Source: Promethearchaeia archaeon (GTDB lineage: Archaea > Asgardarchaeota > Lokiarchaeia > Sigyniarchaeales > SOKP01). From it: 29,370 bases of DNA. Position numbers and translations under genes: made by a program. The stretch's first letter is position 1, and each line of letters begins with the position of its first letter. This document shows, piece after piece, positions 1,287-28,600 of this stretch. The stretch covers positions 1 to 29,370 of the forward strand of contig JAHQWL010000064.1 of assembly GCA_029856155.1 (NCBI GenBank), given 5' to 3'. The notes beneath the pieces are model-generated. The model was given only the letters and a program-made list of their open reading frames with translations. It searched no databases and was not told where the DNA came from.

Positions 1287-2939
1287 TTACGTAATTTTAA
1301 ATCCTTTAAATAATTTCAATAAGAATGTTATTTCTTCAGAGCTTTCTATTAACCTTCTTAAATTATAGGGGAAAACATCTAATGCTACTTCTTTCCCTTC
1401 GGAAACTTGTTCAATCATTATTCTTATAATTTCTTTGTATTTTCTAACTGTGTTTCCTTCAGTTTCAATTTCAGAGATAACTTCCCATGCTTTTTCTAAT
1501 TTTCCGTTTAATATACAGGAGATAGAAGCGAGGACATAGCTTTGAACTATATGAGAATGACCAATTTTTTTAAGGTTAGCAGCTCTATAATAGTAGCGAT
1601 AAAGATTATTAACCATTTCTCTCAAAAGAAAATCCTTGGCTATATCCAATTGTTCATAAAATTTTATGCTTTCTAAAATAAGAGTTGCAGCAGTAAAAAA
1701 TTGCTTATTTTTTAATCCTTCTTTAGCAATTTTATTTAATCCTCTAATTATTTGATTAAAAATCCCAAATCTGTTAAATTCTAATTCACCTTCGATAGCG
1801 ATATCATATGCGTTTAAATAACTCTCTGTGGACTCGTTTATACTCCCAATTTTCCAAAAATTATCTCCTGCTTTAACATAATGTTTATAAGCCATTTCAA
1901 AGTTTTTCAATTCTTTAAATACGTTAGCAGCATCAACAAGATTTATCGCAGCTTGGTTAAAATCCTCAATTTTTTCTGAAAAATTTCCAGCTAATATAAA
2001 ACAAGAAGCACATTCAATTAAATTATTTTGAATGTCTTGATAACATAACCCGGCACCTCGGTAATATCGCGCAATTTTATGATAGTTTTCTTTATTTTTT
2101 TCTATAGTTTCTGCTAAATCTATATATGCTCCAGCTTCTTTCTTGGAGAAAATAGTATATTGATCTGCTTTATCCAAAATGCTATAGAGATTCTTTAATA
2201 TCTGATATATTTGAGCTAAAGTTAAACCATCGCTTTTTTCTTCATATTGAGTTGCTAAATTTGAGAAATGTTCTACACCATCCAAAATAATATCTTGAGA
2301 TTTGTTATAATCATCGATTTCCTCATAACAAGATCCTATTTGTTGATAAGAGAAGGAAAGCATATCAAAATAATTATGAAGTTTTGAAATTTTGATAACT
2401 TTCTCATAGTATTTTATAGCATTCATATAATCTGAAAATTTTAAAAATAATTCTGCTATATTTTGATAATTCTGGGCAAGTTTTCTGGTTTCATTAAATT
2501 CTTTTAAAAGTTTACTTTCTTGTTTTAGAAATTTGATACTGTTTAAAATATTCTTTTTTTCAGCTTGTAAATCTACTATTTTCTCATGATAAATATCTGC
2601 TATTCGTAAGTATAACTCAGCAATTTCATGTAATTTCGCTTGAAGCTTATAATCAATAATTAATTTTTTATAGAGTTCAATAATTTGGTTGTATAATTTG
2701 AGTGCTTCGGCAAAATTTAGGTTTTCCATGATTTCAGCTACAGAAAAAAGAAACTCTCCTGCTTCAAAATATTCTCCAGATTCAGTAATTTCTTTAGAGA
2801 AATTAATCGCTCCTGAAATCATTTCTCGTATTGTCTTTTCTTTCTCTATTGGATCAGTTAATTGCTGAATTTTAGATTCATATTGTCTTATTTTATCTAA
2901 ATACTCTGTATAATCGATGAATTCATCTTCTTCAATAAT
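1287..2939 (-). CDS. Alpha-helical TPR/SNAP (soluble NSF attachment protein)-like repeat protein
   Basis: Repeated helical units such as AELYLRIADIY, ARYYRGAGLCY, ASCFILAG, AYKHYVKAGDNF. The ORF track starts at ATG 2822, but the frame is open to 2951 and a GAGGAG SD precedes ATT at 2939. Confidence 0.7.
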   Translation of the reverse strand: MIEEDEFIDYTEYLDKIRQYESKIQQLTDPIEKEKTIREMISGAINFSKEITESGEYFEAGEFLFSVAEIMENLNFAEALKLYNQIIELYKKLIIDYKLQAKLHEIAELYLRIADIYHEKIVDLQAEKKNILNSIKFLKQESKLLKEFNETRKLAQNYQNIAELFLKFSDYMNAIKYYEKVIKISKLHNYFDMLSFSYQQIGSCYEEIDDYNKSQDIILDGVEHFSNLATQYEEKSDGLTLAQIYQILKNLYSILDKADQYTIFSKKEAGAYIDLAETIEKNKENYHKIARYYRGAGLCYQDIQNNLIECASCFILAGNFSEKIEDFNQAAINLVDAANVFKELKNFEMAYKHYVKAGDNFWKIGSINESTESYLNAYDIAIEGELEFNRFGIFNQIIRGLNKIAKEGLKNKQFFTAATLILESIKFYEQLDIAKDFLLREMVNNLYRYYYRAANLKKIGHSHIVQSYVLASISCILNGKLEKAWEVISEIETEGNTVRKYKEIIRIMIEQVSEGKEVALDVFPYNLRRLIESSEEITFLLKLFKGFKIT

Positions 2940-3190: not shown

Positions 3191-3436
3191 GTGATTGTTA
3201 TAAAACAAGTTTCTGAATTATTAGATACTGGTCTGTATGAAACCTTCAAACCAGAAAAAACAATGACCGTGGCTGACCTATTACAAGAACTCAACTTGGA
3301 AAATAAATATTTTGGAATCTTGGTGAATGGGAAAAAGGCTACACCAGATACAGTTATCACTGAGCAATCAGAAGTGGTTATCCTTCCCCATAGCTTCGCT
3401 TAATTAAAGTGGAGCGGGGAGATCGCTGGAGGATAA
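3191..3436 (+). CDS. ThiS/MoaD/SAMP/Urm1-type ubiquitin-like (beta-grasp) protein, split by a putative 30-nt intron; exons 3191-3391 and 3422-3436; spliced product of 71 aa ends …VVILPHIAGG
   Basis: TVADLLQEL, ILVNGK and D-V-I…V-ILP are ThiS/MoaD hallmarks. The expected IAGG* is encoded in frame at 3422-3436, after the insert. Confidence 0.85.
3392..3421 (+). other. Putative archaeal bulge-helix-bulge/loop (BHB/BHL) mRNA intron, 30 nt
   Basis: CCCC(3386-89) pairs with GGGG(3416-19) as a 4-bp central helix. Bulges are AUA(3390-92) and AGA(3420-22). Intron stem is 9 bp (3393-3401/3407-3415). Outer exon stem is 10 bp (3376-85/3429-38). Confidence 0.8.
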
Positions 3437-3471
3437 CCTCAAATATAGTTTTTTTGATTCTTTTTATTTTT

Positions 3472-3648
3472 CTAATAAAAATCGTCTAAGAAATTTTCTA
3501 GATGTTCCCACCAAGGTCTATATTTAATATTATGTTGGTTCCAGGCATTTGGAGGAAGGTACCGACCAGTAAATATTAACCTAGCTGTTATTTCATCTAT
3601 TCTATTATTATCCCCCCAATCGAATATTTTTTTGATAATTTTTTTCAT
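3472..3648 (-). CDS. Small hypothetical ORF (58 aa, MKKIIKKIFDWGDNN…PWWEHLENFLDDFY) or gene remnant
   Basis: ATG 3648 to TAG 3472, read manually and absent from the ORF track. No family recognised. Confidence 0.3.
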   Translation of the reverse strand: MKKIIKKIFDWGDNNRIDEITARLIFTGRYLPPNAWNQHNIKYRPWWEHLENFLDDFY

Positions 3649-27412: not shown

Positions 27413-28600
27413 TTACCCCATTTTTTCTATTAATTTGTCTACAATTTCTTTAAAATCTAAATCTTCTGGTCTTGGAACAAACTTAATTTCTATTGTATCT
27501 TCCATTACATCAATTTTAGCAGCGTTCATCAATTCCACGATTTCTTTTACAGCACCTCCGCCCCAACCGAATGAGCCAAAAGCTAATCCAACCTTATTCA
27601 AAGGCTTTAAACCCTTTTGATAAGATAAATATTCTGCTACAGTTGGATATAGTCCATTATTTAGAGTAGGGCTCCCAACTAAGATTGCTTTTGCTTTCAT
27701 AGCTTCGGTTATCACATCTGAATAATCGGCATTAGTCAATCTATACCTTTTTACTGGAATTCCTCGATGCTTAATTTCATTGGTTAATGCTTTTGCAATT
27801 TTTGCGGTACTTTCCCACATTGTGTCGTATACGATAAGGACACTTTTTTCATCAATTTCGCCTTTACTCCATTTAGTATATCTTTCTAAGATTTCAGGAA
27901 TATGGTTCCTCCAGCAGATCCCGTGAGAAGGACATATAATTTCGATCGGCAATGCTCCAACCTTTGGTATTGTCTTTGCTATCAACCCAGAAAGATGAAG
28001 TAAAATGTTCGCATAATATTTTTCTGCTTCTTGAAATACTTCAGCAAGATCATTTTCATCATCCCAACGCTTGGATGTTGCATAATGTTGTCCAAAAGCA
28101 TCATTTGAAAATAATACATTTTTCCCATTCTCGTCAGTCATAAAAGAAACCATAGAATCGGGCCAATGAATCATTGGAATAGGCACAAATGTAAACTTTT
28201 TACCGTTTCCAATATCTAAAGTATCCCCTTCCTCGACAGCTCTAATTTTATTGAATATATCCTCAGCAATTTCCTCATGAAAATGAGCTTTTAAAATTTC
28301 AACCCCCCTCTTTGAAGCAATTAATTCAGCATTAGGAAGATATTTGAGGATTAATGGAAAAGAGCCAGAATGATCCATCTCAACATGATTTGTAATATAG
28401 TAATCAATTTCGGAAGGATCGCAGACATCCTTAATATTCCCCAAAAAGTAGTCAAAATAAGGACGTTTAACAGTATCAATAAGTACAGTTTTCTCTCCTT
28501 TAACTATATATGAATTATAACTACTCCCTCGGTTAGTAGAATATCCATGAAAATTCCGTACCTCCCAATCTACATAACCAACATAATAGATATCTTTCAT
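27413..28600 (-). CDS. fprA: Flavodiiron protein (FprA, class A; O2/NO reductase)
   Basis: NHVEMDHSG, HWPDSM, SNDAFGQH, PSHG, YDTMWEST, GSPTLN, FGSFGWGG. Confidence 0.95.
   Translation of the reverse strand: MKDIYYVGYVDWEVRNFHGYSTNRGSSYNSYIVKGEKTVLIDTVKRPYFDYFLGNIKDVCDPSEIDYYITNHVEMDHSGSFPLILKYLPNAELIASKRGVEILKAHFHEEIAEDIFNKIRAVEEGDTLDIGNGKKFTFVPIPMIHWPDSMVSFMTDENGKNVLFSNDAFGQHYATSKRWDDENDLAEVFQEAEKYYANILLHLSGLIAKTIPKVGALPIEIICPSHGICWRNHIPEILERYTKWSKGEIDEKSVLIVYDTMWESTAKIAKALTNEIKHRGIPVKRYRLTNADYSDVITEAMKAKAILVGSPTLNNGLYPTVAEYLSYQKGLKPLNKVGLAFGSFGWGGGAVKEIVELMNAAKIDVMEDTIEIKFVPRPEDLDFKEIVDKLIEKMG

What the first reader, a model, noticed from the sequence alone, without database searches (positions are those of the whole stretch)
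3191..3436. Possible splicing-controlled switch linking tRNA-splicing capacity to sulfur relay or protein conjugation
Established: ThiS/MoaD/SAMP/Urm1 proteins need the terminal GG for E1 adenylation, thiocarboxylation (tRNA thiolation, Moco, thiamine) or conjugation. Seen in sequence: the intron sits four codons from the end, so unspliced mRNA encodes an almost complete domain ending SFA (70 aa) and spliced mRNA encodes the GG form (71 aa). Inference: the two isoforms could be a folded but non-activatable decoy versus an active modifier. Their ratio would be set by endonuclease/ligase activity, conceptually like non-spliceosomal HAC1/XBP1 splicing in eukaryotes. The non-canonical loop on the 3' side could make splicing tunable. 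The intron could also simply be neutral and constitutively removed.
Basis: inference. Interest (0 to 1): 0.75.

Follow-up and report, generated by a model that had tools for sequence, protein, structure and literature searches.

The report
tRNA-type intron before ubiquitin-like Gly-Gly end
A 30-base intron of the kind archaea normally cut out of tRNAs interrupts a small ubiquitin-like gene of an Asgard archaeon four codons before its essential Gly-Gly end; the intron is real by comparative evidence and is one of many such mRNA introns in this genome, and nothing supports the proposed regulatory switch.

Summary
Window 3191-3436 (+) encodes a ThiS/MoaD/SAMP2-like beta-grasp protein. Bases 3392-3421 are an extra 30 nt. 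They sit in a bulge-helix-bulge (BHB)-type fold: a 10-bp exon helix, a 4-bp CCCC:GGGG helix, a 3-nt 5' bulge, a 9-bp intron hairpin and a 9-nt 3' bulge.

Cutting by the BHB rule gives ...ILPH|IAGG*. Eighteen of 23 same-genus orthologues read exactly this with no insert. Fourteen insert-bearing alleles (30 or 32 nt) keep the fold through many compensatory changes. All 14 keep exon 2 as Ile-Ala-Gly-Gly, with only synonymous variation in the 13 aligned. Exon 1 is under purifying selection (dN/dS about 0.1).

The genome has RtcB and two EndA paralogues. One paralogue carries the crenarchaeal broad-specificity loop (K-P-R).

The switch idea gains no support:
- The intron is patchy (7 of 54 genus genomes, at least 6 gains or losses).
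- The unspliced tail is not conserved.
- The odd 3' bulge lies in the Ile-Ala-Gly codons.
- The same mini-introns split unrelated genes here (AMP phosphorylase, an AIR-synthase-like gene, uL11, dodecin).

No RNA data could be obtained, so splicing is inferred. This scan has noted similar mRNA introns in other Asgard and DPANN genomes. In print, an intron inside a coding sequence is reported only for cbf5.

The parts
3191..3391 (+). Exon 1 of the ThiS/SAMP2-like ubiquitin-fold gene (codons 1-67, GTG start, ends ...VVILPH)
   Evidence: ORF list. Pfam ThiS 32.1 bits, SAMP2 21.5 bits, which is below its cut-off. Orthologues found in 37 of 41 related genomes. dN/dS median 0.10 among intron-bearing alleles.
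3392..3421 (+). 30-nt BHB-type mini-intron. It contains the in-frame TAA (3401-3403) that ends the unspliced ORF.
   Evidence: Absent exactly at this point in 18 of 23 genus orthologues. Present as 30 or 32 nt at the same site in 14 alleles. Covariation measured.
3422..3436 (+). Exon 2: ATC GCT GGA GGA TAA = Ile-Ala-Gly-Gly-stop
   Evidence: All 13 aligned intron-bearing alleles encode IAGG, varying only at third codon positions. Three of them have exon 2 out of frame on the DNA because the intron is 32 nt.
3376..3385 (+). Outer helix h, 5' strand (GGUUAUCCUU, the Val-Val-Ile-Leu codons)
   Evidence: Fold. Helix 1 is 88.5% paired, and 3 of its pairs change on both sides.
3386..3389 (+). Central 4-bp helix H, 5' strand (CCCC)
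   Evidence: 100% paired in 13 alleles, with CG to UA compensation at one pair.
3390..3392 (+). Canonical 3-nt 5' bulge (AUA). The inferred cut is after 3391.
   Evidence: Fold. This cut position reproduces the intron-less junction CAT|AT..
3393..3415 (+). Intron hairpin h': 9-bp stem and 5-nt loop
   Evidence: 7 of 9 pairs show changes on both sides; 93.2% paired.
3416..3419 (+). Central helix H, 3' strand (GGGG)
3420..3428 (+). Non-canonical 9-nt 3' bulge (AGAUCGCUG). The inferred cut is after 3421, two nt past H.
   Evidence: Fold. The same 9-nt bulge is present in all 13 aligned alleles, and positions 3-9 are Ile-Ala-Gly codon bases.
3429..3438 (+). Outer helix h, 3' strand (GAGGAUAACC: Gly codon bases, the stop codon and 2 nt of 3' UTR)
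   Evidence: In G009 both strands changed together (GUGAUC with GAUCAU), which changes the C-terminus to GGS*.
3449..3472 (+). T-rich tract after the stop, a likely archaeal transcription termination signal
   Evidence: Read directly from the sequence; not tested.

Best explanation
Bases 3392-3421 are an archaeal endonuclease-type (bulge-helix-bulge) intron in the pre-mRNA of a small ThiS/MoaD/SAMP2-like ubiquitin-fold protein of an Asgard (Promethearchaeota) archaeon.

Proposed mechanism:
1. The transcript folds so that exon codons and the stop codon form an outer helix.
2. CCCC:GGGG forms the 4-bp central helix, and the intron forms a 9-bp hairpin.
3. The heteromeric tRNA-splicing endonuclease EndA cuts after the second base of the canonical 3-nt 5' bulge and two bases past the central helix in a relaxed 9-nt 3' bulge.
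4. RtcB joins the exons.

Only the spliced mRNA encodes the Gly-Gly C-terminus (...ILPHIAGG) that E1-type activation needs, so splicing is obligatory for function.

The intron is most likely removed by default, like the other mini-introns of this genome. It is an evolutionarily mobile or losable passenger rather than a dedicated regulator.

Shown here: the insert, its conserved fold, its precise absence in orthologues, selection on both exons, and the presence of the enzymes. Inferred: cleavage and ligation in vivo, and their efficiency.
For: 1. The insert is precise. Eighteen of 23 genus orthologues read ...ILPH|IAGG(x)* with no insert at exactly the predicted junction.

2. The fold is conserved. 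Across 13 alleles, 92.3% of cells pair, against 45-51% when partners are slid. Eleven of 23 pairs change on both sides. None of 500 shuffles reaches any of the measures.

3. Exon 2 is read in the spliced frame. All 13 alleles encode IAGG, using ATC/ATA/ATT and GCT/GCA/GCG. This includes three alleles with 32-nt introns, where exon 2 is out of frame on the DNA.

4. The gene is alive. dN/dS among intron-bearing alleles has a median of 0.10 and a maximum of 0.31. It is the only copy of this subfamily in the genome. The four other ThiS-family genes end in uninterrupted GG.

5. The machinery is present.
- Two full-length EndA paralogues.
- One of them aligns to the A. pernix EndA alpha subunit, including K-P-R opposite K44/R46 of the crenarchaeal loop. 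PMC3241643 shows that loop gives broad, bulge-helix-loop specificity.
- RtcB is present.
- Half of the tRNA genes ARAGORN finds carry introns.

6. It is not unique. In the same genome, 30-nt introns of the same build (1 + 9 bp + 5 + 9 bp + 4 + 2) split AMP phosphorylase (restoring DKHS|TGGVPGNK) and an AIR-synthase-like gene. Both are precisely absent in most orthologues and show compensatory changes. Inserts in uL11 and dodecin restore the family motifs.

7. It is the top-scoring BHB-like site in the genome.
Against: There is no RNA or protein evidence. No spliced-form contig turned up in JGI contigs with the pattern used. No spliced-form protein is among the listed best 120 database hits.

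The 3' cut site lies in a 9-nt bulge, not the canonical 3-nt bulge, so efficient cleavage is assumed from the type of EndA, not shown.

BHB-like motifs as a class are not enriched over a mirror-image control in this AT-rich genome. The motif alone would therefore prove nothing; the case rests on the comparative data.

'Constitutive' is a default assumption, not a measurement.
Confidence: 0.75

Rival explanations
1. Regulated switch. Splicing is incomplete and tunable. The cell makes a mix of an activatable Gly-Gly form and a folded Gly-Gly-less decoy ending in SFA. This would couple sulfur-relay or conjugation capacity to EndA/RtcB activity, in the manner of HAC1/XBP1.
For: The truncated product keeps every secondary-structure element: the last strand is residues 62-66 and the tail is disordered. 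The 3' site is non-canonical in all alleles. The ORF is very short and the intron lies at its 3' end, so ribosomes coupled to transcription could reach the intron before it is removed (inference). All 14 alleles stop translation within 2-5 codons of the 5' splice site.
Against: The intron is missing from 47 of 54 genus genomes, and its presence is scattered on the tree of the neighbouring gene. The intron-less alleles encode the Gly-Gly form directly from an uninterrupted gene. The unspliced tail is not conserved in sequence or length. The 9-nt bulge is made of Ile-Ala-Gly codons, so coding accounts for it. Identical mini-introns sit inside catalytic motifs of unrelated enzymes, where the unspliced product is simply truncated. 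An in-frame stop in a 30-nt AT-rich insert is expected by chance about 57% of the time (my estimate from the 30% G+C measured).
Confidence: 0.1
2. Not an intron. A hairpin insertion (a terminator-like or miniature mobile element) has cut off the C-terminus. The 70-aa protein without Gly-Gly is the real product, or the gene is dying.
For: The element is a strong hairpin near the 3' end, followed by a T-rich tract. Gene callers annotate the 70-aa form. There is no RNA evidence for splicing.
Against: Exon 2 stays IAGG-stop in all 14 alleles, with only synonymous variation in the 13 aligned. Exon 1 has dN/dS of about 0.1. The geometry obeys the BHB cut rule to the base and reproduces the intron-less junction. 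The exon helices co-vary with the insert. A plain terminator needs none of this.
Confidence: 0.07
3. Translational recoding: either stop-codon read-through of TAA 3401-3403 or ribosomal bypass of the hairpin (as in T4 gene 60) produces the Gly-Gly form from unspliced mRNA.
For: In the 30-nt alleles exon 2 is in frame with exon 1, and a stable hairpin follows the stop.
Against: The 32-nt alleles break the frame. The residues that read-through would insert are not conserved. There are no matching take-off and landing codons. The bulge and helix spacing matches EndA rules instead.
Confidence: 0.02

Closest known systems
BHB intron of the cbf5 pre-mRNA in Crenarchaeota (Watanabe 2002; Yoshinari 2006; Yokobori 2009, PMC2738675)
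   Same: Both are short endonuclease-type introns inside a protein-coding sequence. Both often have a relaxed cleavage motif. Both occur in organisms with a hetero-oligomeric, broad-specificity EndA, and both are gained and lost among close relatives.
   Different: The phylum (Asgard) and the gene (a ubiquitin-fold protein) differ. This intron sits four codons from the stop, so it removes only the Gly-Gly tail. It is one of several to many mRNA introns per genome, not a single case. Splicing is not experimentally shown here. As of 2020, cbf5 was described in print as the only mRNA coding-sequence case (PMC7714728).
Non-canonical (relaxed HBh' / bulge-helix-loop) tRNA introns of Thermoproteales and Asgard archaea, cut by (alpha-beta)2 EndA
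   Same: A 4-bp central helix, one canonical 3-nt bulge and an intron hairpin, with the second cut site in a larger loop. The EndA alpha-like paralogue here has the K-P-R loop. Asgard tRNA genes are heavily interrupted (bioRxiv 10.64898/2026.10.13.758758).
   Different: The host RNA is an mRNA. The exon halves of the motif are codons and a stop codon, so protein coding limits how canonical the motif can be.
IRE1-dependent HAC1/XBP1 unconventional mRNA splicing
   Same: Non-spliceosomal removal of a short intron that changes the protein's C-terminus. RtcB-family ligation operates in metazoa, and an RtcB is present here.
   Different: The nuclease is different (an IRE1 kinase-RNase) and so is the motif (two 7-nt loops). 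HAC1/XBP1 splicing is stress-induced by a dedicated sensor. No sensor and no conservation pointing to regulation were found here. The resemblance is conceptual only.
BHB intron in the 5' UTR of Haloferax volcanii HVO_1309 (PMC7714728)
   Same: EndA processes an mRNA, and a regulatory role has been discussed.
   Different: That intron lies in the untranslated leader, is 46 nt long, and does not alter the protein.

Membership tests
Archaeal BHB (endonuclease-type) intron | 4-bp central helix between the two cut sites | tested here: met
   CCCC with GGGG; 100% of cells paired in 13 alleles, with CG to UA compensation. A 14th allele, from another genus (G094), has 3 of 4 pairs.
Archaeal BHB (endonuclease-type) intron | Two 3-nt bulges on opposite strands | tested here: not met
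   The 5' bulge is 3 nt (AUA), but the 3' bulge is 9 nt in all 13 aligned alleles. It therefore belongs to the relaxed class (HBh' or bulge-helix-loop-like), not the strict hBHBh' class.
Archaeal BHB (endonuclease-type) intron | Flanking helices h (exon) and h' (intron) | tested here: met
   A 10-bp exon helix and a 9-bp intron hairpin, both supported by covariation.
Archaeal BHB (endonuclease-type) intron | Cutting after the second bulge base restores a continuous, conserved product | tested here: met
   It gives ...ILPH|IAGG*, identical to 18 intron-less orthologues.
Archaeal BHB (endonuclease-type) intron | Cleaved by EndA and ligated by RtcB in vivo or in vitro | not testable with these tools
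   The genes are present.
ThiS/MoaD/SAMP/Urm1 beta-grasp sulfur carriers and modifiers | Sequence-family membership | tested here: met
   Pfam ThiS 32.1 bits against a cut-off of 22.5.
ThiS/MoaD/SAMP/Urm1 beta-grasp sulfur carriers and modifiers | Beta-grasp fold | tested here: inconclusive
   The AlphaFold model of an intron-less orthologue has mean pLDDT 78. The best PDB matches are MoaD, TtuB, ThiS and SAMP2, but no match reaches the tool's E <= 0.001 cut: the best is MoaD at E = 4e-3, the others 0.2 or worse, with TM 0.5-0.68.
ThiS/MoaD/SAMP/Urm1 beta-grasp sulfur carriers and modifiers | C-terminal Gly-Gly | tested here: met
   Met only after the intron is removed. The unspliced ORF ends in SFA.
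SAMP2 (NCBIfam NF041919 / Pfam PF21965) | Score above the curated cut-off | tested here: not met
   21.5 bits against 27 (Pfam) and 24.2 against 70 (NCBIfam). It is SAMP2-like, not a SAMP2 equivalog.
HAC1/XBP1-type regulated splicing | Condition-dependent splicing set by a sensor nuclease | not testable with these tools
   No expression data. The comparative pattern gives no hint of regulation.

The most novel reading that the evidence does not exclude
The intron is a true gate. The 3' site is relaxed, and the 213-nt ORF is translated while it is still being transcribed. A substantial and variable share of transcripts therefore yields a folded Gly-Gly-less protein that competes for the E1. Production of activatable modifier would then track the cell's EndA/RtcB capacity, giving an archaeal counterpart of HAC1/XBP1 logic in the closest relatives of eukaryotes.
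Probability: 0.08. Interest if true: 0.8.

Novelty: new member of a known kind. Interest (0 to 1): 0.6.

Why it matters
In print, endonuclease-type splicing of an archaeal coding sequence is reported for one gene only, cbf5 in Crenarchaeota. Here an Asgard archaeon carries such an intron in a ubiquitin-like gene, with strong comparative support, and the same genome carries several more in unrelated genes.

If RNA data confirm splicing, routine mRNA splicing by the tRNA-splicing machinery would be a feature of the archaeal lineage nearest to eukaryotes.

There is also a practical consequence. Gene callers annotate these genes as truncated or split. About 18% of this protein family's database representatives lack their Gly-Gly end for this reason.

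Tried and rejected

2. Search for spliced forms. A scan of JGI contigs for the spliced or unspliced junction with exon 2 GGAGGATAA found four intron-bearing contigs, one unrelated hit and no spliced form.

3. Genome-wide motif counts.
- Relaxed BHB-like motifs: 37,615 real against 36,970 in the mirror control.
- Strict motifs: about 48,000 in each.
- Neither class is enriched over the mirror-image control.
- ORF-merging tests are not enriched over shifted-cut controls.
- Motif scans alone therefore cannot count mRNA introns in this 30% G+C genome. They also missed the uL11 and dodecin inserts.

4. Candidate at contig C17:8161. It is an in-frame 30-nt hairpin with a similar loop, but its fold has z = -0.64, so I treat it as chance. 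The candidate at C102:41383 was not followed up.

5. Possible within-species polymorphism. Intron-less proteins 99% identical to exon 1 (P0003, P0005) looked like this, but their DNA is only 86-89% identical. They come from other species.

6. Translational bypass, read-through and pseudogene readings: see the rival explanations.

7. Profile search of the PDB by sequence gave only weak SAMP2 and MoaD hits, E 0.5-0.7.

Full report
**What is there.**

Window 3191-3403 (+) is a 70-aa ORF ending ...ILPHSFA*. It matches Pfam ThiS above the cut-off and SAMP2 below it. In the same frame after the TAA come ten more codons ending IAGG*.

The minimum-energy fold of 3370-3442 is -31.5 kcal/mol, z = -4.17. 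It consists of:
- a 10-bp outer helix made of the Val-Val-Ile-Leu codons and of Gly codons, the stop and 2 nt of UTR;
- a 4-bp CCCC:GGGG helix;
- a 3-nt bulge, AUA;
- a 9-bp hairpin with a 5-nt loop;
- a 9-nt bulge on the 3' side.

On each strand a bulge follows the 4-bp helix, which is the handedness of the archaeal bulge-helix-bulge motif. Cutting after the second base of the 5' bulge and two bases past the central helix removes 3392-3421. The join reads ...CCC CAT | ATC GCT GGA GGA TAA, that is ...ILPHIAGG*, 71 aa.

**Is it more than chance?**

I laid the organism's 4.1-Mb, 30% G+C genome in the script box and scanned both strands for BHB-like geometry. This site scored highest of all (53.2). 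No site in a mirror-image control, with the bulge on the wrong side, reached 50. As a class, though, such motifs are no commoner than in the control. The motif alone is therefore weak evidence and the case has to rest on comparison.

**Comparative evidence.**

The exon-1 protein finds one orthologue in 22 of 24 sampled genomes of the same genus, besides the window's own.

- In 18 of the 23 loci the DNA reads ...ILPH|IAGG(x)* with nothing between CAY and ATH. That is exactly the predicted junction.
- Five loci carry a 30-nt insert at that point.
- Among the 120 best database cluster representatives, 21 (18%) end two to five residues after ILPH without Gly-Gly.
- All eight of those that I fetched carry a 30- or 32-nt insert at the same site.
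- A covariance model found the element in 7 of 54 genus genomes and in one genome of a second genus of the family. It found none in the other families sampled, out of 151 genomes of the class.

On an alignment of 13 alleles:
- 92.3% of cells form pairs, against 45-51% when partners are slid by one to three columns;
- 11 of 23 pairs change on both sides, including 7 of 9 in the intron hairpin;
- the central helix shows CG to UA compensation;
- no shuffle in 500 reaches the observed values.

In G009 both strands of the outer helix changed together, which altered the C-terminus to GGS*.

**The spliced frame is the one under selection.**

All 13 aligned alleles encode Ile-Ala-Gly-Gly in exon 2, using three Ile and three Ala codons. 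Three of them have 32-nt introns, so exon 2 is out of frame with exon 1 on the DNA and only precise excision yields IAGG.

Exon 1 has dN/dS of about 0.10 among intron-bearing alleles. This is the only gene of its subfamily in the genome. The four other ThiS-family genes end in uninterrupted Gly-Gly.

**The machinery.**

The genome encodes two full-length EndA paralogues.
- One aligns best to the catalytic alpha subunit of the Aeropyrum pernix (alpha-beta)2 enzyme.
- It keeps K-P-R opposite K44/R46 of the Crenarchaea-specific loop.
- That loop was shown to confer cleavage of non-standard and bulge-helix-loop substrates (PMC3241643).

RtcB is present. ARAGORN recognises only 28 tRNA genes, and half of them have introns. 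This fits the heavily interrupted tRNA genes reported for Asgard archaea, in which most genomes carry two EndA paralogues (bioRxiv 10.64898/2026.10.13.758758). Protein names place the organism in the Promethearchaeota (Asgard).

**It is one of a set.**

The second-best BHB site in the genome, C44:81452, is a strict hBHBh' motif that splits an AIR-synthase-like gene (restoring ...CGFHV|TRAALRDLYVKGAKP). A third, C98:57026, splits AMP phosphorylase inside DKHS|TGGVPGNK.

- Both are 30 nt and have the same build as the ThiS intron: 1 + 9 bp + 5-nt loop + 9 bp + 4 + 2.
- The AIR-synthase-like insert is precisely absent in the roughly 27 other orthologues examined and present in one congener, G024, where it is 29 nt.
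- The AMP phosphorylase insert is absent in 16 of the 23 genus orthologues and in all eight loci examined from other genera. It is present in six congeners.
- Its carriers show compensatory changes, including the central helix going from TAGC:GTTA to CAGT:GCTG.

First-stage notes on this genome list many more candidates. I checked two of them, and the inserts in uL11 and dodecin do restore the family motifs.

The hosts are a ribosomal protein, a flavin-binding protein, nucleotide metabolism, an AIR-synthase-like enzyme and a ubiquitin-like protein. There is no visible bias towards tRNA modification.

**The switch hypothesis.**

The premise is sound. An AlphaFold model of an intron-less orthologue puts the last strand at residues 62-66 and leaves the tail disordered. 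Its nearest solved folds are MoaD, TtuB, ThiS and SAMP2, though all are weak matches. The SFA-ended product would therefore be a complete fold lacking only the activatable end.

Four things speak against a dedicated switch.
1. The intron is dispensable. Forty-seven of 54 genus genomes lack it. On a tree of the neighbouring gene its presence needs at least six changes, four of them forced by well-supported branches, which is no more clustered than shuffled labels.
2. The unspliced tails share neither sequence nor length.
3. The 9-nt 3' bulge is two intron bases plus the Ile-Ala-Gly codons. A canonical 3-nt bulge would require codons this protein cannot have, so coding explains the irregularity.
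4. The sister introns sit in catalytic motifs, where non-splicing can only give dead fragments.

An early in-frame stop is expected by chance in more than half of such AT-rich inserts. I conclude that the intron must be removed to make a working protein and is probably removed by default. A regulatory by-product remains possible (about 0.1) but has no positive support.

**Evolution.**

Intron-bearing alleles mostly end exactly at GG-stop, because TAA is part of the outer helix. By contrast, 86 of 98 intron-less representatives carry one extra residue after GG.

Two independent metagenome contigs (ENA and JGI) carry the intron and exon 2, followed by a decayed second copy of an intron-less 3' end. 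This suggests that the intron-plus-exon-2 cassette recombined into a formerly intron-less allele.

**Limits.**

Splicing is inferred, not observed. No spliced-form contig or protein was found. Motif scans could not give a count of mRNA introns.

**Relation to what is known.**

The mechanism matches the cbf5 pre-mRNA intron of Crenarchaeota (PMC2738675). In 2020 that was still described as the only BHB intron in an archaeal coding sequence, besides a 5'-UTR intron in Haloferax (PMC7714728). Searches of the held literature found no report of such introns in Asgard protein genes.

This scan has already noted similar introns on other Asgard and DPANN DNA, one of them with metatranscriptome support. 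The present case is therefore a new member of that kind. What sets it apart is its position at the Gly-Gly end.

Noticed in passing
L025:1480-1932 (also L027, L028; sister family f2): The closest relative of this ubiquitin-like protein in a sister family is fused in frame, directly after IAGG, to ribosomal protein eS31/S27ae (Pfam PF01599, 7.7e-20). It sits just downstream of eS24. This mirrors the eukaryotic ubiquitin-eS31 precursor. In the window's own genome eS31 is a stand-alone 73-aa ORF (C72:115292). The scan has already noted this fusion on other DNA (e1-5448676).
   Followed up: partly
L108:578-700 and L131:6316-6420: Two independent metagenome contigs carry the intron and exon 2 (IAGG*), followed immediately by a decayed second copy of an intron-less 3' end (PH-IAGGF*-like, with a 1-nt deletion). 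It looks as if an intron-plus-exon-2 cassette recombined into an intron-less allele.
   Followed up: partly
L043:1953-1982 (genome contig C44:81452-81481): A strict hBHBh' 30-nt intron splits an AIR-synthase-like (ThiL/SelD/HypE-related) gene next to a PP-loop ATPase. It is present only here and, as 29 nt, in one congener (G024). It is precisely absent in about 27 orthologues.
   Followed up: yes
L044:1527-1556 (genome contig C98:57026-57055): A 30-nt intron sits inside the DKHS|TGGVPGNK active-site motif of AMP phosphorylase. It is present in 7 of 23 genus genomes, with compensatory changes that include the central helix.
   Followed up: yes
L132:1400-1490 (C44:~135950-136040) and L133:1485-1520 (C71:~27606-27636): The ribosomal protein uL11 gene has two short inserts and the dodecin gene has one 31-nt insert. 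Removing them restores the family motifs (VTGGSA|SGGPPIA|PSVGPTG and QLVG|TSDKNW). My strict motif scan missed all of them.
   Followed up: partly
window 3422-3438 compared with the intron-less orthologues L003-L024: Intron-bearing alleles nearly always end exactly at GG-stop, because TAA pairs in the outer helix. Most intron-less alleles carry one extra residue after GG, which implies proteolytic maturation. RNA structure thus shapes the protein's C-terminus.
   Followed up: partly
window 1287-2822 (-): A 511-aa TPR protein with a SNAP-like (soluble NSF attachment protein) Pfam hit lies divergently upstream. This arrangement is conserved in 23 of the 25 related loci tested.
   Followed up: no
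whole genome (G000): ARAGORN finds only 28 tRNA genes in a genome that is 97% complete, and 14 of them have introns. Many tRNA genes are probably too interrupted to be recognised.
   Followed up: no
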